Source: an uncultured Clostridia bacterium
GTDB lineage: Bacteria; Bacillota; Clostridia; TANB77; CAG-508
Reading direction: 5' to 3'
DNA length: 63,674 nt
Assembly: GCA_944387535.1 (NCBI GenBank)
Contig: CALXFI010000003.1
Coordinates: 1 to 63,674 of the forward strand
This document shows positions 46,922-58,944 of this stretch, one piece after another. Each line of letters opens with the position of its first letter. Positions within the stretch are counted from its first letter, which is position 1. Made by a program: the position numbers and the translations under genes. The notes beneath the pieces were generated by a model. That model saw only the letters and a list, made by a program, of their open reading frames with translations. It was not told the origin of the DNA and did not search any database.

Positions 46922-48535
46922 CTAATTCCAATCTGTTGATATTGGATTTGACCTAAACATACTATATCGCTCTCTTCCCAGGGCTGTAAAATACATACTC
47001 TTTAATGTATTATTTCCACAATTTTCTATATATTCATAAATATTATCTGTGCTATTAGTTCCTGACTGAGTTACTATTGATGAATAACATCCACTTTCTT
47101 GATGTGGATAATAATAAACTGTATTTGTTCCATTTGTAGCAGATTTCCTTTCAAAGTCTATATTAAAATATGCACCTGTAATATTACTACCGTTTAATAA
47201 ATCACTATCTGTTACTCTATGAAACTGATTATCATCTGTTGTTATATATATTGAATCAAGATTTACAACTTCTTTTGTTTTTGTATTTGTTACTATTGAA
47301 TAACCATTATATATTTTTCCACCTATACTTAATCCTTGCATAAAACTAATTATAGACACATTATTTAATATTTTTTCCCACTCGTCTTCTTTTAATTCTG
47401 GCATTTGGAAACTTGTACCCGCACTAGAATAATTATTATAATTTGCAATTGCTATTGAAAGATTTTTTTCAATTGAATAACGTATTACTGCTAATCTATG
47501 TTGGTTAAATAATGAATTTGGATCTTCTATTGAATCTGCCCATCCAGCTTGATTTTCAAAAATAGGAAGGTTATCTCCAAAAACATTACCTAATTGTTGT
47601 CCATCTTCATCTACTGCATCTCCTGTAGTTATATCTCCAAGATTAGTTCTTACCCAATCTGTAAATTCATATGCATTTTTATAAAAGTCTACTGCAGAAC
47701 GATTATCTACAGAATATGTATTACTTGTTGGATATACTGTATTAGTAAGTATTGAAAACCATTTACCATCTTCACCTAGATAATATTTAGATCCATTTAC
47801 CTTGTCACAAATATAATTACCGTTAATTTCAGTATAATTACCGTCTCCATCTTCCCTATAAGCTCTAAGATATTCCGTTAAATTATGTTCTACAGAAATT
47901 GTACTTCCCCTATATACTGCACTATCATCAGTTACACTTGAAATATTATCTAGTAAATATCCAGTTTTATAAACAGCATCACCTTTAACTATTCCTTCAA
48001 CTGTTATACAGTTATCCAACGAATAAGTTATTACTACATCTGTTGAACCATCTATATATCTACAACTGTAATGAACATATGGTTTTAAATCATATATTTT
48101 CTCACCATTTTGATAAGTAGAACCACCTTCACCATTTGCATCTGGTGGTACATAATCATCTTCTGTTAAAGTATTAGTAAATGGTGTATAGATATAATAT
48201 CCATCATACATTGTATACACAATAGCTGGTACATATTCTTGTAATATATCTTTATTATATCCTGCCATATTGAAATTTTTCGCTATAGAGTTAAAAAATG
48301 TATTAACAGATGCTTGTATGTCTCTTATTTTAGAGTTTGCTAAAGCTGAACTTCCACTATTTACAGTGTTTAATTGAAACGCCTTTAAAGCATCATATGT
48401 TGCATTTGTTAATTTTGTATCATATGAAATCTGTAATTCCAATGTTTGCACTTGGTTTTGCACATATGCAGTTAATACCATAGAAATTGGTAACATTATT
48501 ATAATAAATATTACCGCTAAATTCTGTATCTTCAT
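46922..48535 (-). CDS. large secreted or anchored protein with a pilin-like N-terminal helix (last gene of the filament locus)
   Basis: 537 aa. 'MKIQNLAVIFIIIMLPISMVLTAY' precedes an N/T/Y/G-rich ectodomain. No known domain recognised. Confidence 0.5.
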   Translation of the reverse strand: MKIQNLAVIFIIIMLPISMVLTAYVQNQVQTLELQISYDTKLTNATYDALKAFQLNTVNSGSSALANSKIRDIQASVNTFFNSIAKNFNMAGYNKDILQEYVPAIVYTMYDGYYIYTPFTNTLTEDDYVPPDANGEGGSTYQNGEKIYDLKPYVHYSCRYIDGSTDVVITYSLDNCITVEGIVKGDAVYKTGYLLDNISSVTDDSAVYRGSTISVEHNLTEYLRAYREDGDGNYTEINGNYICDKVNGSKYYLGEDGKWFSILTNTVYPTSNTYSVDNRSAVDFYKNAYEFTDWVRTNLGDITTGDAVDEDGQQLGNVFGDNLPIFENQAGWADSIEDPNSLFNQHRLAVIRYSIEKNLSIAIANYNNYSSAGTSFQMPELKEDEWEKILNNVSIISFMQGLSIGGKIYNGYSIVTNTKTKEVVNLDSIYITTDDNQFHRVTDSDLLNGSNITGAYFNIDFERKSATNGTNTVYYYPHQESGCYSSIVTQSGTNSTDNIYEYIENCGNNTLKSMYFTALGRERYSMFRSNPISTDWN

Positions 48536-48607
48536 AAATATCTTCCCTTTTGTATTATAAAATTAGCTTGTAATATAAAAATATTACAAGCTAGTAAGTT
48601 TACTTTT

Positions 48608-49144
48608 TTAATTTCCAGCACCATTTGCTGTAACTATACCAGCATGTTCTGCTGCAATTGTATATGTATCATTTCCTGTAACTTTATAGAAAAAGTTTTT
48701 AAGTTGTTGTGATAATGTTGAATTTGTATTTCTTACACTAGTTGAGAAAATATCTCCTTCTTTTAACGCTAATACTGTATTTTTATTCGGTGTATCAATT
48801 TTGTCTAATATTTGAGATGTATACATTGTATAATATACATTTTCTCCTATTTTTGTTGATTCTGTTTGAGTTGTTTTCTTTCCTGGGTTTTCATCTAATA
48901 CTTGTAGTTCCATTTCTACATCGTAACTGTTTCCAGTTGCAGAAAGTGTTTGTACAAAACTATTATACTTATCTATTGTTAATTTCCCCGTTGTTCTTAC
49001 ATCATCAACAAACTCAGTCGTTGCTGTTTCCACTGACAATTGTGAAACATCATCTGTTCTATCAGACATTGTCATTAGTGGAAAAATAAACATTAGAACT
49101 GCAGCTAATACTATGGCTATTACTGTAATTAATGTATCTCCCAT
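48608..49144 (-). CDS. minor pilin-like protein
   Basis: 178 aa. 'MGDTLITVIAIVLAAVLMFIFPLM' forms a hydrophobic N-terminal helix ahead of a small globular domain. Confidence 0.5.
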   Translation of the reverse strand: MGDTLITVIAIVLAAVLMFIFPLMTMSDRTDDVSQLSVETATTEFVDDVRTTGKLTIDKYNSFVQTLSATGNSYDVEMELQVLDENPGKKTTQTESTKIGENVYYTMYTSQILDKIDTPNKNTVLALKEGDIFSTSVRNTNSTLSQQLKNFFYKVTGNDTYTIAAEHAGIVTANGAGN

Positions 49145-49187
49145 TTTATCCTCCTTCGGTATTAAAATACCTTTTAAAAATTATTGG

Positions 49188-57101: not shown

Positions 57102-57103
57102 TT

Positions 57104-57802
57104 TTACGCTCCTTTTTCTATTGTTTTTATAGCTTTTCTAACTTTATTTCCACCAGTATCTCCTAATATTTCTTCAGCTATATATGCTAAACCATCTTTA
57201 TATTGCACACTTAATTTCTTGAATTTTATTTTTGAAACTCTTTGATTTTCATATATAACATCTAAATCTCCATTTTCTATTGGGAAATAAATTCTATAAT
57301 CATCCCATATTACTTTATATCCTAAAGATAAGAAATTTAAGTAATCATCCTCTTCTTTTAACATTTCTTTAGAAAATAATACTTTAGTTAAAGAAATAGC
57401 ATTTTTAAGGTCTGTTAATGCTTCTAATCCTCTTTTTAAAGAATATACATCAAAAGATGTTACAAAATAATTCTTTTGTGCTCCTTCTAGATAGAATCCA
57501 TCAAAACCTTCACTATTATCTGTATCAACAAGTATTATGTCATATTCTGAGTCTAACTCCCCTGAAATTCCTAAATATCTTTTTATATCTTCTTCATGGT
57601 GAAACCCTACTGCTATATCAATTTCTTCATATTCTGTTATATACATTAGCGTAGGGTTTATAACAGGTACGACATATCTCGCTTTTTGGCTTACTGTCGC
57701 ATCAATTATTAACACTCTATTTCCTAACACAGTTAATATTTTTGCTACATATATAATTAAATCTGTTTTATCATAGCCCCCTATAAACCCTATTCTTTTC
57801 AT
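57104..57802 (-). CDS. ParA/MinD-fold protein with a degenerate P-loop
   Basis: 'RIGFIGGYDKTDLIIYVA' lacks the GK[T/S] lysine context. 'VLIIDAT' and 'DIILVDTDN' retain the fold signature. Confidence 0.5.
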   Translation of the reverse strand: MKRIGFIGGYDKTDLIIYVAKILTVLGNRVLIIDATVSQKARYVVPVINPTLMYITEYEEIDIAVGFHHEEDIKRYLGISGELDSEYDIILVDTDNSEGFDGFYLEGAQKNYFVTSFDVYSLKRGLEALTDLKNAISLTKVLFSKEMLKEEDDYLNFLSLGYKVIWDDYRIYFPIENGDLDVIYENQRVSKIKFKKLSVQYKDGLAYIAEEILGDTGGNKVRKAIKTIEKGA

Positions 57803-57828
57803 AAAGTTTTTCTCTCCTTCTTTTTATT

Positions 57829-58944
57829 TTATTGTGTAGTTGTAGTTGTTGTTGCTCCTCCAGCTAATGAATCTAAGTAATCTTGTCTTGCTTCTTGAGA
57901 TCTTGTTATACTATCTTCCATATTTGTTTGTAAGTTTGAATCTGCCTGATCTGCTTGGCTATTTATTACACTGTTTATATAATCATTTCTTATAGCTGCA
58001 CTATTTCCGCTATTATATCTATCTCTTATTGCTTGCATTGCAGAATTTAATATATTTGGATCACTTTGTAATAATGCTGAAGTATCTGAGTTAACAACAT
58101 ATGTTGGTGTAGCTGCATTTTGCATTCCTGGTTCTGTATATTTAGTTGCATATAGTTTTGCTCCACTTACTCTTGCTGCATCAATTATTGCACAGCTCAT
58201 ATGTAATATTTCGTCTTCTGATAAGTTAACCCATATTGTATCTTCTGAATCTGTATCTCCAACAAATGGAATTTCTACTTCTTTTTTAGATACAACTATA
58301 AAATCTTGTCCATTTGGCAACATTAATCTTATATCTATATAATCTCCTGTTGCTAAATCTATAGGTAATACAACAACGTTATATTCTTGTCTTCTTACAT
58401 CGTCTTGTACCACACTATCGCCTCTACTGATTAAATCTGTTGTAATTAATGTATTTGCATTCATATTAACTTTGGCTATTATCGGAACAGAATCTAATTC
58501 AAGATATTCTTCTTGCCCATTTCTTTCAATATAATAATTTCCTGTACTTTCATCTTGTTGTACTTGATATCTAGTATTATCAATTGTTATATACATTATT
58601 GCATTGCCTTGATTATCATATTGTGTTGTTATTTGATTTCCTTCTTTATCTTGTAATGCATAATTTTGAATTACACTTAAATCACTAGTTGCATTGCTTG
58701 GAACTAAAGTTCTATCAACTTGTGTTAACTGTAACATATCGTTTGTAATTACTTGTCCTGATTTCACATCTTGAGTAAGTACATAAGCATTTACCATATT
58801 TGATGCACTTTCTCTTTCTTCTTGAATTCTACTCATTAATTGCATAATTAAAAATGCTATTACAATACCTGATATTACTAGCATTACTAGCATTCCTAAT
58901 AAAAATGAATTTCTTGCTTTTCTTTGCATTGGATTTGTTGCCAT
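57829..58944 (-). CDS. CpaB/RcpC-like pilus assembly protein (TM anchor + SAF domain)
   Basis: 'SFLLGMLVMLVISGIVIAFLI' precedes 'VNAYVLTQDVKSGQVITNDMLQLTQVDRTLVP' (SAF-like). 371 aa with a C-terminal T-rich tail. Confidence 0.65.
   Translation of the reverse strand: MATNPMQRKARNSFLLGMLVMLVISGIVIAFLIMQLMSRIQEERESASNMVNAYVLTQDVKSGQVITNDMLQLTQVDRTLVPSNATSDLSVIQNYALQDKEGNQITTQYDNQGNAIMYITIDNTRYQVQQDESTGNYYIERNGQEEYLELDSVPIIAKVNMNANTLITTDLISRGDSVVQDDVRRQEYNVVVLPIDLATGDYIDIRLMLPNGQDFIVVSKKEVEIPFVGDTDSEDTIWVNLSEDEILHMSCAIIDAARVSGAKLYATKYTEPGMQNAATPTYVVNSDTSALLQSDPNILNSAMQAIRDRYNSGNSAAIRNDYINSVINSQADQADSNLQTNMEDSITRSQEARQDYLDSLAGGATTTTTTQ

What the first reader, a model, noticed from the sequence alone, without database searches (positions are those of the whole stretch)
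46922..58944. Twelve-gene Tad/archaeal-like type IV filament locus with atypical composition in a Gram-positive spore-former
The transcription order is:
- a CpaB-like SAF protein
- a ParA-like protein with a degenerate P-loop
- a second ParA-like protein
- a TadA/CpaF-like ATPase
- TadB-like and TadC-like membrane proteins
- five small pilin-like proteins
- two further proteins with N-terminal hydrophobic helices, of 178 and 537 aa

The genes are tightly packed, on the same strand, and follow one plausible promoter (59006-59034).

No prepilin peptidase, no Flp-type (G/xxxxEY) or type IVa (G/FTLxE) pilin, and no secretin is visible in the locus. The subunits belong to a family I cannot place. 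The architecture is Tad-like, while the subunit N-termini and the possible fused platform protein look more archaeal. This could be an uncharacterised filament, adhesion or secretion system.
Basis: partly seen in the sequence, partly recalled or inferred. Interest (0 to 1): 0.7.

Follow-up and report, generated by a model that had tools for sequence, protein, structure and literature searches.

The report
TANB77 Tad-like pilus gene cluster
This is a real type IV filament (pilus) gene cluster distantly related to Tad systems, with subunits that fit no curated family, but the same cluster was already described in 2024 as conserved in the uncultured gut Clostridia order TANB77, so it is not a new discovery.

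Summary
Thirteen tightly packed minus-strand ORFs (46922-58944) encode:
- a SAF/CpaB-like protein
- two ParA/MinD-like proteins
- a membrane-anchored CpaF-like ATPase
- a platform protein split into two ORFs
- seven proteins with one N-terminal hydrophobic helix each

Pfam and NCBIfam barely recognise any of them.

The locus matches, gene for gene in order and size, the "pilus gene cluster" that Kim et al. (Nat Commun 2024, PMC11680825) reported in 122 of 129 TANB77 species. The closest genomes are uncultured Clostridia, including Ca. Merdicola (TANB77, family CAG-508).

What I add:
- Four subunit families share a nearly invariant N-terminus, MENASKAL, while their globular parts are only about 40% identical.
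- No A24 prepilin peptidase lies in the window or within 10 kb of 84 related loci.
- The platform is one fused protein in 68 of 80 loci. In the window's clade it is split by a 1-nt insertion.
- HMM-HMM comparison gives moderate support for a T2SSF-like domain in each half.
- The whole cluster also occurs on Bacillales and Clostridium megaplasmids. In the three I examined it sits beside GGDEF (diguanylate cyclase) genes, and in two of them also beside S-layer-homology protein genes.

The most likely function is a surface filament for adhesion. No filament has been observed.

Novelty: already known. Interest is moderate.

The parts
58945..59052 (-). Intergenic region upstream of the first gene, holding two weak sigma-70-like matches (59034-59006 and 59001-58974) and an AGGGAGG ribosome-binding site
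   Evidence: Both matches are 9 of 12, which is no better than chance in this AT-rich DNA.
57829..58944 (-). CpaB/RcpC-like protein, 371 aa: N-terminal membrane anchor, SAF domain, conserved C-terminal domain
   Evidence: Pfam SAF E 5.5e-5. TIGR03177 CpaB E 1e-6, below its cut-off. Median 47% identity across 80 loci. Homologues on plasmids.
57104..57802 (-). First ParA/MinD-like protein, 232 aa, with a deviant P-loop (GxxDKT) that is conserved in the family
   Evidence: The family profile matches MinD only at E 0.095. Kim et al. report structural similarity to TadZ for the equivalent protein.
56265..57101 (-). Second ParA/MinD-like protein, 278 aa. The TGKT motif is intact here, but the Walker lysine is present in only 13 of 24 relatives.
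   Evidence: (ParA family 3ea0, E 0.004).
54275..56248 (-). CpaF/TadA-like secretion ATPase, 657 aa, with an N-terminal transmembrane helix and a family-specific domain of about 230 aa ahead of the ATPase core
   Evidence: Family profile against solved structures: CpaF 6e-21, FlaI 8.5e-13, VirB11 2.5e-7. 95 of 110 full-length family representatives have the N-terminal hydrophobic helix. This is the most conserved gene of the cluster, median 83% identity.
52889..54232 (-). N-terminal half of the membrane platform protein, 447 aa. It is a separate ORF here because of a 1-nt insertion in the interdomain linker.
   Evidence: hhalign against a TadB/TadC profile gives probability 59-75% and P 2.5e-5 to 9e-5, above all 21 controls. 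No Pfam or solved-structure sequence hit.
52150..52911 (-). C-terminal half of the platform protein, 253 aa. It restarts at a Met that aligns with an internal Met of the fused proteins.
   Evidence: hhalign against the T2SSF profile gives probability 51% and P 1.5e-4.
51334..52128 (-). Pilin-like subunit, 264 aa, N-terminus MENASKAL followed by a hydrophobic helix
   Evidence: The N-terminus is nearly invariant in 79 homologues, while whole-protein identity has a median of 41%.
50851..51321 (-). Pilin-like subunit, 156 aa, N-terminus MENASKAL
50397..50840 (-). Single-helix protein, 147 aa, with a different N-terminus. Most homologues start at MKK, which would be 50828 here.
   Evidence: A sigma-70-like promoter lies upstream of this gene in about half of 78 loci. 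In the window the corresponding match is 10 of 12 at 50868-50839.
50341..50369 (-). Strong sigma-70-like match (TTGCCA, 17 nt spacer, TATAAT) in the 98-nt gap upstream of the 140-aa gene
   Evidence: 11 of 12 matches. It is not conserved at this position in other loci.
49876..50298 (-). Smallest MENASKAL subunit, 140 aa, and the candidate major pilin
   Evidence: AlphaFold2 model with pLDDT 84.7: a helix over residues 2-53 followed by a small alpha/beta domain. Mean pairwise identity among 75 homologues is 97% for residues 1-30 and 53% for residues 57-140. The scan found 91 such ORFs, so some loci carry two copies. No Foldseek match in the PDB.
49188..49850 (-). Pilin-like subunit, 220 aa, N-terminus MENAADAL (family consensus MENAxDAL)
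   Evidence: It is the fastest-evolving gene of the cluster, median 39% identity.
48608..49144 (-). Single-helix protein, 178 aa, N-terminus MGDTLIT, comparatively conserved (median 59% identity)
   Evidence: Homologues on plasmids.
48564..48593 (-). Hairpin with a 13-bp stem followed by an A/T-rich tail, between the 178-aa and 537-aa genes. It may be an attenuator or terminator.
46922..48535 (-). Large membrane-anchored protein, 537 aa, the positional counterpart of 'pilin 938' in Kim et al. and a candidate tip or adhesin subunit
   Evidence: Relatives range from 235 to 1239 aa, and one each carries Listeria-Bacteroides repeats or an Fn3-like domain. No solved-structure or Pfam hit for the window protein.

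Best explanation
The locus is this organism's copy of the chromosomal pilus gene cluster that is conserved across the uncultured gut Clostridia order TANB77. It encodes a type IV filament machine from the Tad/archaeal branch of that superfamily, adapted to a cell with a single membrane.

Inferred mechanism, by analogy with Tad systems:
- The seven single-helix proteins insert into the membrane through their N-terminal helix.
- A hexameric, membrane-tethered CpaF-like ATPase turns or pushes a platform built from two T2SSF-like domains. In this clade the domains are two polypeptides. In most relatives they are one.
- The platform lifts subunits out of the membrane into a helical filament whose core is the invariant N-terminal helix.
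- The two ParA/MinD-like proteins have non-canonical P-loops. They probably act as positioning or docking adaptors like TadZ/CpaE rather than as active ATPases.
- The SAF/CpaB-like protein probably links the machine to the cell wall.
- The four subunits with the MENASKAL (or MENAxDAL) N-terminus co-assemble, with the 140-aa protein as the likely major subunit.
- The 147-aa, 178-aa and 537-aa proteins are likely priming, tip or adhesin components.

The filament is most likely an adhesion and colonisation organelle. Its exposed parts appear to be under diversifying selection.

Shown here:
- gene content, order and conservation
- the ATPase's affinity for CpaF
- moderate HMM-HMM similarity of both platform halves to T2SSF
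- invariant N-termini joined to variable globular domains

Inferred, not shown:
- that a filament forms
- which protein is the major subunit
- whether the N-terminus is processed
- the function
For: 1. Identity with the published cluster.
- Kim et al. list proteins of 358, 231, 280, 640 (one transmembrane helix), 693 (fused platform), 165, 170, 143, 146, 237, 178 and 621 aa.
- The window has 371, 232, 278, 657 (one transmembrane helix), 447+253, 264, 156, 147, 140, 220, 178 and 537 aa, in the same order.

2. Taxon.
- At least 578 GTDB species genomes carry a relative of the ATPase.
- The best 80 are uncultured Clostridia, Clostridium sp. CAG:389 and CAG:780, and Ca. Merdicola.
- Merdicola belongs to TANB77, family CAG-508 (PMC13106387).

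3. Conservation. Gene order is strict across the 80+ loci, usually between a HAD hydrolase gene and spoIVB.

4. ATPase.
- Profile against solved structures: CpaF 6e-21, FlaI 8.5e-13, GspE 2.6e-9, VirB11 2.5e-7, then PilT and PilB.
- The family is discrete: 376 clusters (at 50% identity) with E <= 1e-30 among 1.8 billion representatives.

5. Platform.
- Two separate hhalign hits to a TadB/TadC profile score 44 and 42.
- The best of 21 reversed or block-shuffled controls scores 30.

6. Subunits.
- MENASKAL is nearly invariant in three paralogous families and MENAxDAL in a fourth, while the globular parts are about 40% identical.
- Within the 140-aa family, mean pairwise identity is 97% for residues 1-30 and 53% for residues 57-140.
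- The AlphaFold2 model (pLDDT 84.7) has a helix over residues 2-53 plus a small alpha/beta domain, the general shape of a type IV pilin.

7. Surface exposure.
- In the nearest relative the HAD protein is 95% and the ATPase 96% identical, but the 264-aa, 220-aa and 537-aa proteins are only 72%, 67% and 79%.
- Some relatives of the 537-aa protein carry cell-surface repeat domains.

8. Plasmid-borne relatives.
- All three examined lie beside a GGDEF gene.
- Two (T. composti, A. pseudofirmus) are also followed by an SLH protein gene and a very large DUF5704 protein gene.
- I read this as adhesion or biofilm context.
Against: - No filament has been seen in any carrier. TANB77 is uncultured.
- None of the seven subunits matches a pilin family by sequence. 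The good model of the 140-aa protein has no Foldseek match in the PDB (best E 1.9).
- No prepilin peptidase is linked in the window or near 84 related loci.
- The canonical G at position -1 and E at +5 are absent.
- The platform has no Pfam or solved-structure sequence hit. My AlphaFold2 model of it was unusable (pLDDT 42.7). Its T2SSF assignment therefore rests on hhalign probabilities of 50-75% and on the structural claim of Kim et al.
- The ParA-like and CpaB-like assignments are weak at the sequence level.
- The choice of the 140-aa protein as major subunit is soft. The internal promoter that is conserved across the family lies upstream of the 147-aa gene, not the 140-aa gene.
Confidence: 0.75

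Rival explanations
1. The machine builds a short pseudopilus that works as a piston for protein secretion or DNA uptake (like T2SS or ComG), not a long adhesive pilus.
For: - There are seven subunit genes, several of them probably minor, as in ComG and T2SS operons.
- One subunit has a faint ComGC hit (E 0.0085).
- No adhesin domain is recognisable in the window's 537-aa protein.
- The filament has never been observed.
Against: - The ATPase is much closer to CpaF than to GspE, and the ComGA model scores 21.6 bits against a cut-off of 300.
- No ComEA, ComEC or ComF genes and no obvious secreted substrates lie next to the locus.
- The fast evolution of the subunit globular domains fits exposed surfaces better than a hidden piston.
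- Some relatives of the 537-aa protein carry cell-surface repeats.
Confidence: 0.12
2. It is a mating or conjugation-associated apparatus, a pilus that serves DNA transfer, inherited from plasmids.
For: - The best NCBIfam hit is the 'TadA family conjugal transfer-associated ATPase' (E 5e-9, far below its cut-off).
- Full-length relatives of the ATPase lie on 34 Firmicutes plasmids.
- On pTHECO01 the cluster lies about 8 kb from a coupling-protein gene and near relaxase-like genes.
Against: - In TANB77 the cluster is chromosomal and sits at a conserved site, with no relaxase, coupling protein or VirB4 within 10 kb.
- VirB11 is a far weaker match than CpaF.
- pTHECO01 has its own complete Gram-positive conjugation module elsewhere: a TcpE-family protein, a large ATP-binding protein, a cell-wall hydrolase, a coupling protein and relaxases.
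- The C. botulinum and A. pseudofirmus plasmid loci have no adjacent transfer genes. They have GGDEF genes, and the A. pseudofirmus locus also has an SLH protein gene.
Confidence: 0.05
3. It is a sporulation-linked envelope structure, for example a spore appendage or a mother-cell/forespore apparatus.
For: The locus sits between a small acid-soluble spore protein gene with a HAD hydrolase gene on one side and spoIVB on the other, in the window and in most relatives.
Against: - The same cluster occurs on plasmids with no sporulation genes nearby.
- spoIVB itself is split in the window's clade while the pilus genes stay intact.
- I found no sporulation-specific regulatory evidence, but I did not scan for sporulation sigma-factor promoters.
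- No known spore-appendage family matched.
Confidence: 0.04
4. The copy in this window is decaying and no longer functional, because the platform gene is frameshifted.
For: A 1-nt insertion splits the platform into 447-aa and 253-aa ORFs. spoIVB next door is also split.
Against: - The insertion is shared by independently assembled relatives whose surrounding bases differ, so it is inherited rather than an assembly error.
- It falls in the interdomain linker, and the second ORF restarts at a Met aligned with the fused proteins.
- 12 of 80 loci are split near the same point, including distant ones.
- Canonical Tad systems use two separate platform proteins (PMC6668835).
- All other genes of the cluster are intact.
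Confidence: 0.04

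Closest known systems
TANB77 'pilus gene cluster', proteins 927-938 of HRGM_Genome_2725 (CAG-245 sp000435175); Kim et al., Nat Commun 2024, PMC11680825
   Same: - Same gene order and near-identical sizes.
- Same unusual features: a membrane-anchored TadA-like ATPase, two ParA-like proteins, a platform of about 690 aa, six small single-helix proteins and one large one, with no domain hits for the subunits.
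- Same host clade.
   Different: - The platform is split into two ORFs here, as in 12 of 80 loci.
- The last protein is 537 aa rather than 621 aa, and the first subunit 264 aa rather than 165 aa.
- The paper calls the cluster exclusive to TANB77 among human-gut genomes. I find the whole cluster also on Bacillales and Clostridium plasmids.
- I could not compare sequences directly, because the paper's supplements are not held.
Canonical Tad/Flp pilus systems (Aggregatibacter tad, Caulobacter cpa; Firmicute example on Ruminococcus albus 7 pRUMAL01, locus L088)
   Same: - CpaF is the nearest solved ATPase.
- A CpaB-like SAF protein and ParA-like TadZ/CpaE-type proteins precede the ATPase, the platform follows it, and subunit genes come downstream.
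- There is no secretin, as expected for single-membrane cells (PMC6668835).
   Different: The R. albus locus has the following, none of which this locus has:
- two separately annotated T2SSF-family proteins
- an 86-aa Flp with G/AEFLEY
- an A24 peptidase within the locus

In this locus:
- Pfam T2SSF does not hit the platform.
- There is no Flp and no linked peptidase.
- The subunits are 140-264 aa with globular domains.
- The ATPase is about 200 aa longer and membrane-anchored.
Archaeal type IV pili, Epd-like clade (the proposed ancestors of Tad; Denise et al. 2019, PMC6668835)
   Same: - One long platform protein with two T2SSF-like domains is the majority state in this family. According to Denise et al. 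that is also the state in most archaeal T4P other than the Epd-like clade.
- Kim et al. assign TadC-like to the first half and TadB-like to the second, the same order Denise et al. report for archaeal platforms.
- The short N-terminal peptide ends in K-A before the hydrophobic helix. From my own knowledge, this resembles archaeal class III signal peptides.
- FlaI is the second-best solved ATPase match.
   Different: - The ATPase is clearly closer to bacterial CpaF than to FlaI (77.6 against 50.7 bits).
- No FlaK-, PibD- or EppA-type peptidase and no FlaH-like protein is linked.
- All hosts are Firmicutes.
MSH pili (mannose-sensitive haemagglutinin)
   Same: These are type IV filament loci that systematically lack their own prepilin peptidase and are thought to borrow one encoded elsewhere (PMC6668835).
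   Different: They are an unrelated branch derived from T4aP, found in double-membrane bacteria, with a secretin and canonical pilin leaders.
ComG competence pseudopilus of Firmicutes
   Same: It is a single-membrane host system, in one operon, with an ATPase, a platform and several pilin-like proteins.
   Different: - The ComGA and ComGC models score far below their cut-offs (21.6 of 300 bits and 16.3 of 75 bits).
- The subunits have no G/FTLxE leader.
- Com systems have no CpaB-like or ParA-like genes.

Membership tests
TANB77 pilus gene cluster (Kim et al. 2024) | Twelve conserved genes in a fixed order: CpaB-like, two ParA-like, a TadA-like ATPase with one transmembrane helix, a platform of about 690 aa, six small single-helix proteins, one large single-helix protein | tested here: met
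   Order and sizes match Table 1 of the paper. The platform is split in two here but fused in 68 of 80 relatives.
TANB77 pilus gene cluster (Kim et al. 2024) | Host belongs to GTDB order TANB77 | tested here: met
   This is indirect. The nearest loci are uncultured Clostridia, CAG:389, CAG:780 and Ca. Merdicola. Merdicola is in TANB77, family CAG-508. Window GC is 27.4%. I ran no GTDB-Tk classification.
TANB77 pilus gene cluster (Kim et al. 2024) | Sequence homology to proteins 927-938 of HRGM_Genome_2725 | not testable with these tools
   The paper's supplementary files are not held, and that genome was not among the 80 loci returned.
TANB77 pilus gene cluster (Kim et al. 2024) | Conserved across the clade at a chromosomal site | tested here: met
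   The loci examined share the gene order, mostly between a HAD hydrolase gene and spoIVB.
Tad (tight adherence) pilus system | TadA/CpaF-family ATPase | tested here: met
   CpaF is the best solved match (E 8e-8 for the single sequence, 6e-21 for the profile). TIGR03819 scores E 5e-9, below its cut-off. The protein is divergent, with an extra N-terminal membrane anchor and domain.
Tad (tight adherence) pilus system | Two platform proteins, TadB and TadC, each with one T2SSF domain (PF00482) | tested here: inconclusive
   - No Pfam T2SSF hit in any of 24 members, and no solved-structure sequence hit.
- hhalign against a TadB/TadC profile gives one hit per half, with probability 51-75% and P 2.5e-5 to 1.5e-4, above 21 controls.
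- My AlphaFold2 model was too poor to test the fold.
- The protein is fused in most relatives.
Tad (tight adherence) pilus system | TadZ/CpaE ParA-like localisation protein | tested here: inconclusive
   There are two ParA/MinD-like proteins with weak matches (MinD E 0.095; ParA 3ea0 E 0.004). The P-loops are non-canonical. Neither protein is long enough to carry the N-terminal receiver-like domain that, from my own knowledge, TadZ has; this was not tested directly.
Tad (tight adherence) pilus system | Flp-type major pilin: short, with G/xxxxEY processing motif | tested here: not met
   The subunits are 140-264 aa, begin MENASKAL, and have no G/xxxxEY. A canonical Flp from R. albus is shown for contrast.
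Tad (tight adherence) pilus system | Dedicated A24 prepilin peptidase (TadV/CpaA) | tested here: not met
   - None lies in the 63.7-kb window. Ten further ORFs, chiefly the multi-helix membrane proteins, were scanned with Pfam.
- No multi-helix ORF with the GxGDxK motif lies within 10 kb of 84 loci. The motif does detect the R. albus A24 peptidase.
- Absence from the rest of the genome could not be tested.
Tad (tight adherence) pilus system | CpaB/RcpC SAF-domain protein | tested here: inconclusive
   The SAF domain passes Pfam's threshold (24.1 bits against 21). TIGR03177 CpaB scores 28 bits against a cut-off of 71, over the N-terminal 75 residues only.
Tad (tight adherence) pilus system | TadE/TadF pseudopilins and TadG | tested here: not met
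   No TadE or Tad-domain hit for any subunit. Kim et al. report only partial structural similarity of the N-terminal quarter of protein 938 to TadE and PilV.
Archaeal type IV pili (Epd-like) | Class III signal peptide cleaved after [K/R][G/A] by an archaeal-type peptidase | tested here: inconclusive
   - K-A followed by L or I is conserved in three of the seven subunit families and in plasmid relatives (MSTNASKAL, MGENARKAL, MDSVTKAI).
- Cleavage itself is untested and no peptidase was found.
- The motif definition is from my own knowledge.
Archaeal type IV pili (Epd-like) | ATPase of the archaeal FlaI/ArlI type | tested here: not met
   FlaI scores 50.7 bits against 77.6 bits for bacterial CpaF.
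ComG competence pseudopilus | ComGA ATPase, ComGB platform, ComGC-type pilins with G/FTLxE | tested here: not met
   ComGA scores 21.6 bits against a cut-off of 300, and ComGC 16.3 bits against 75. The leader motif is absent.
Conjugative type IV secretion system | VirB4-type ATPase, coupling protein and relaxase linked to the locus; VirB11-type ATPase | tested here: not met
   None is present in the window locus or in the flanks of related chromosomal loci. VirB11 is a weak match (2.5e-7 against 6e-21 for CpaF). pTHECO01 encodes its transfer module separately.

The most novel reading that the evidence does not exclude
These loci form a distinct, so far unclassified branch of the type IV filament superfamily. 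They are found on TANB77 chromosomes and on Bacillales and Clostridium megaplasmids.

The branch would be defined by:
- an unfissioned two-domain platform
- a membrane-anchored CpaF-like ATPase
- pilins with an invariant 7-8-residue N-terminal peptide ending in K-A

The pilins would either be cut by an unlinked, non-canonical peptidase or assemble with no cleavage at all (leaderless type IV pilins).
Probability: 0.4. Interest if true: 0.65.

Novelty: already known. Interest (0 to 1): 0.4.

Why it matters
TANB77 is a prevalent, uncultured gut clade. Kim et al. link it, and the largest protein of this cluster, to better responses to cancer immunotherapy (PMC11680825). How the filament is built and what it binds therefore has practical weight.

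For pilus biology, several features are poorly explained:
- subunits that no curated sequence family recognises, and a 140-aa subunit model with no structural match in the PDB
- an invariant N-terminus that is not a canonical prepilin leader
- no linked peptidase
- a platform that appears to have split more than once, much like the gene fission proposed at the origin of Tad systems

The practical gain from this work is that close relatives of the whole cluster sit on plasmids of cultured Bacillales and Clostridium. This gives tractable hosts in which assembly, processing and function could be tested.

Tried and rejected
- Platform structure. AlphaFold2 on the fused platform, using 31 close homologues, gave pLDDT 42.7. 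That is too poor for a fold search, so I ran none.
- Subunit fold. Foldseek of the good 140-aa model against the PDB found nothing (best E 1.9).
- Profiles against solved structures. The platform, the CpaB-like protein and the 537-aa protein gave no credible hit.
- Internal repeat. hhalign between the two platform halves found none.
- Pfam on 24 platform homologues gave only noise.
- Sequences from the paper. No supplements of Kim et al. are held, so I could not compare directly with proteins 927-938.
- First genome scan. A 14-sequence alignment was too divergent for pattern design. A 6-sequence alignment worked.
- Riboswitches. An Rfam scan of the locus at E <= 1 found nothing, so no c-di-GMP riboswitch is present.
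- Cluster look-up returned no source names.
- Literature. A search for DUF5704 found nothing.
- Cleavable Sec signal peptide reading. I rejected the idea that the conserved N-terminal helix is merely a signal peptide. Signal peptides do not stay 97% identical while the mature domain falls to 53%.
- E2 as the counterpart of pilin Glu5. I weakened this idea, because plasmid relatives begin MSTNASKAL or MDSVTKAI and have no Glu at position 2.
- The 140-aa gene having its own conserved promoter. I dropped this. The 11-of-12 site is specific to the window, and the conserved internal promoter lies upstream of the 147-aa gene.

Full report
**What is in the window**

One search shows 13 same-strand ORFs from 58944 down to 46922, with gaps of mostly a few to a few tens of bases (up to about 100). 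In order of transcription they are:
- a 371-aa protein with a membrane anchor and a SAF domain
- two proteins of 232 and 278 aa with faint ParA/MinD similarity
- a 657-aa ATPase with an N-terminal hydrophobic helix
- two multi-helix membrane proteins of 447 and 253 aa whose ORFs overlap by 23 nt
- seven proteins (264, 156, 147, 140, 220, 178 and 537 aa) that each begin with one hydrophobic helix

Curated profile libraries barely see the locus:
- SAF scores E 5.5e-5.
- CpaB TIGR03177 scores 28 bits against a cut-off of 71.
- T2SSE scores 23.7 bits, just under its threshold.
- The TadA-family model TIGR03819 scores E 5e-9, far under its cut-off.
- The platform ORFs and all seven subunits have no hit.

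Base composition is ordinary: 28.7% GC in the locus against 27.1% elsewhere. The proposed promoter at 59006-59034 is a 9-of-12 match in DNA where such matches occur at the chance rate. Internal promoter-like sites and a hairpin at 48564-48593 argue against a single transcript.

**Identification**

A literature search led to Kim et al., Nat Commun 2024 (PMC11680825). They describe a "pilus gene cluster" present in 122 of 129 species of the uncultured gut Clostridia order TANB77.
- Their Table 1 lists CpaB-like (358 aa), TadZ-like (231), CpaE-like (280), TadA-like with one transmembrane helix (640), a fused TadC/TadB-like platform (693), six small single-helix proteins (143-237 aa) and a 621-aa protein.
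- That is the same order, and nearly the same sizes, as in the window.
- They annotated the machinery by eggNOG and by AlphaFold/Foldseek.
- They could not place the small proteins.
- They reported that recombinant protein 938, the counterpart of the window's 537-aa protein, activates dendritic cells through TLR4 and improves anti-PD-1 responses in mice.

The host assignment fits:
- A scan of one genome per GTDB species found at least 578 genomes with a relative of the ATPase.
- The best 80 (76-96% identity) are uncultured Clostridia MAGs, Clostridium sp. CAG:389 and CAG:780, and Candidatus Merdicola.
- Merdicola belongs to TANB77, family CAG-508 (PMC13106387).
- I could not compare sequences with the paper's reference genome directly.

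**Conservation across relatives**

I called ORFs in 84 related loci and matched them to the window proteins.
- Gene order is essentially invariant, and the cluster usually sits between a HAD hydrolase gene and spoIVB.
- Median identity to the window is 83% for the ATPase, 70% for the platform, 58-59% for the first ParA-like protein and the 178-aa protein, 47-49% for the CpaB-like protein, the second ParA-like protein and the 147-aa protein, and 39-44% for the other subunits.
- The flanking HAD and SpoIVB proteins are 67% and 72%.
- In the nearest relative the HAD protein is 95% and the ATPase 96% identical, yet the 264-aa, 220-aa and 537-aa proteins are only 72%, 67% and 79%.

The subunits therefore evolve much faster than the neighbouring housekeeping genes, as exposed surface structures do.

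**Subunit N-termini**
- The 264-aa, 156-aa and 140-aa families begin with a nearly invariant MENASKAL. The 220-aa family begins MENAxDAL.
- In most loci the ORF starts exactly at that Met.
- Among 75 homologues of the 140-aa protein, mean pairwise identity is 97% for residues 1-30, 73% for residues 31-56 and 53% for the rest.
- A cleavable secretion signal would not be conserved like this. A shared helix that packs into a filament core would.
- The AlphaFold2 model of the 140-aa protein is confident (pLDDT 84.7). It has a helix over residues 2-53 followed by a small alpha/beta domain, the general shape of a type IV pilin. Foldseek finds no match in the PDB.
- The N-terminus is not a canonical prepilin leader. 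It has no Gly at -1 and no Glu at +5.
- Plasmid relatives begin MSTNASKAL, MGENARKAL and MDSVTKAI, so the conserved element is K-A followed by Leu or Ile.
- From my own knowledge this resembles archaeal class III signal peptides.

**Peptidase**
- I picked out the multi-helix membrane ORFs of the 63.7-kb window and scanned them, with a few other unassigned ORFs, against Pfam. None is an A24 peptidase.
- No multi-helix ORF with the GxGDxK active-site motif lies within 10 kb of any of the 84 loci.
- The motif does detect the A24 peptidase of a canonical Tad locus in Ruminococcus albus.
- I could not check the rest of any TANB77 genome.
- Lack of a linked peptidase has a precedent in MSH pili (PMC6668835).

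**ATPase**
- A profile of 14 diverse family members matches solved CpaF best (E 6e-21, 77.6 bits). Archaeal FlaI follows (8.5e-13), then GspE (2.6e-9), VirB11 (2.5e-7), PilT and PilB.
- The family is discrete. Among 1.8 billion representative proteins, only 1234 reach E <= 0.001 and 376 reach E <= 1e-30.
- Of 110 full-length representatives, 95 carry the N-terminal hydrophobic helix.

**Platform**
- It is one protein of about 691 aa in 68 of 80 loci and is split in 12.
- In the window's clade a single inserted base after ...GATATAATG shifts the frame in the interdomain linker. The second ORF restarts at a Met that aligns with the fused proteins.
- Three independent assemblies share the insertion although the neighbouring bases differ, so it is inherited and not an assembly error.
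- Splits near the same point occur in more distant loci too.
- Neither Pfam, nor a profile search of solved structures, nor a test for an internal repeat recognises the protein. My AlphaFold2 model was unusable.
- I therefore built a small TadB/TadC profile from annotated Tad loci on four plasmids and compared it with a platform profile by hhalign.
- Each half gives a separate hit (scores 44 and 42, probabilities 59% and 51%). A reversed template and 20 block-shuffled templates reach at most 30.
- This is moderate, independent support for two T2SSF-like domains.
- Denise et al. note that most archaeal T4P outside the Epd-like clade have one two-domain platform, whereas Tad and Epd have two single-domain genes. 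The fused state here, and its apparently repeated fission, is an interesting parallel.

**ParA-like proteins**
- The first has a conserved deviant P-loop, GxxDKT.
- The second keeps its Walker lysine in only 13 of 24 relatives.
- Profile matches to MinD and ParA structures are marginal.
- They probably act as adaptors rather than as working ATPases. From my own knowledge, TadZ is thought to behave the same way.

**Relatives outside TANB77**
- tblastn against plasmids found 34 records with a full-length relative of the ATPase (37-59% identity). They come from Thermobacillus, Cohnella, Paenibacillus, Alkalihalophilus, Cytobacillus, Sporosarcina, Lysinibacillus and Clostridium.
- I examined three: T. 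composti pTHECO01, C. botulinum pINGR16-02E1 and A. pseudofirmus pBpOF4-01. In the two Bacillales plasmids the whole cluster is there in the same order: SAF protein, two ParA-like proteins, ATPase, a fused platform of about 690 aa, one NASKAL-type subunit, and relatives of the 178-aa and 537-aa proteins. In the C. botulinum plasmid BLASTP did not detect the first ParA-like or the 537-aa counterpart. E-values run from 1e-4 to 1e-90.
- All three carry a GGDEF (diguanylate cyclase) gene close by. The two Bacillales plasmids also have an S-layer-homology protein gene and a very large DUF5704 protein gene directly downstream. T. composti and C. botulinum have an HD-domain gene as well. I read this as adhesion or biofilm context.
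- pTHECO01 encodes a complete Gram-positive conjugation module elsewhere, and the other two loci have no transfer genes beside them.
- Together with the weak VirB11 similarity, this makes a conjugation role unlikely.
- The statement in Kim et al. that the cluster is exclusive to TANB77 therefore holds for human-gut genomes only.

**Mechanism and function**

The best-supported reading is a type IV filament machine of the Tad/archaeal branch, working as set out under the best explanation. Assembly of a filament, the identity of the major subunit, N-terminal processing and the adhesive function are all inferred.

The 140-aa protein is the best candidate for the major subunit:
- It is the smallest MENASKAL protein.
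- Some loci carry two copies.
- It is preceded by an 11-of-12 promoter match in the window.

However, the internal promoter that is conserved across the family lies upstream of the 147-aa gene, with at least 10 of 12 matches in half of 78 loci.

No riboswitch or other known RNA element lies in the locus.

**Verdict**

The system was published in 2024, so I rate it already known, with moderate interest.

The open questions are processing without a linked peptidase, the unclassifiable pilins, and the platform's fusion and fission. The newly noted plasmid-borne relatives in cultured bacteria offer a way to test them.

Noticed in passing
window 45622-46856 (- strand): spoIVB is split into a 108-aa N-terminal ORF (46530-46856) and a 291-aa ORF with the PDZ and S55 peptidase domains (45622-46497). 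The nearest relatives (L001, L002, L005) show the same split, while most other loci have an intact ORF of 400-439 aa. This may mean sporulation is being lost in this sub-clade.
   Followed up: partly
window 44726-45503 (- strand): A 114-aa bAvd-like protein (DGR accessory protein family, E 3e-12 but below its cut-off) overlaps the end of a 150-aa protein made only of MutS domain I. I recognised no reverse transcriptase in the window. The close relatives L001 and L002 have dxs rather than this pair immediately after spoIVB.
   Followed up: no
window 36812-38105 (- strand): A TnpB/IS605 OrfB-type RNA-guided nuclease gene (36930-38105) is followed directly by a RAGATH-18 RNA (36812-36884, 73.9 bits), presumably its guide RNA. 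A 426-aa ORF with no family hit (35459-36739) lies next to it.
   Followed up: no
window 52889-52911; loci L027, L031, L043, L046, L047, L063: The platform gene is split near the same interdomain linker in several loci that are not close relatives (12 of 80 in all). This suggests repeated gene fission that the system tolerates.
   Followed up: partly
L085 (T. composti pTHECO01), L086 (C. botulinum pINGR16-02E1), L087 (A. pseudofirmus pBpOF4-01): Plasmid-borne relatives of the cluster exist in cultured Firmicutes. All three lie next to a GGDEF gene. The two Bacillales plasmids also have an SLH protein gene and a DUF5704 protein gene of about 1100-1200 aa, and two of the three have an HD-domain gene. 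The C. botulinum locus also holds a cell-wall hydrolase gene and a signal peptidase I gene.
   Followed up: partly
loci L008, L025, L051, L011 and others (140-aa gene family): Some loci carry two copies of the 140-aa subunit gene, mostly in tandem (the scan found 91 such ORFs). This fits a variable major pilin.
   Followed up: no
window 72-12345 and 29020-31812 (- strand): The window also holds surface polysaccharide and glycosylation genes: a bacterial sugar transferase (6156-6803), a VanZ-like protein (10054-10572), a PMT_2 family glycosyltransferase (29020-30507) and a GT2 family glycosyltransferase (30565-31812). Whether any of them modifies the pilus subunits is unknown.
   Followed up: no
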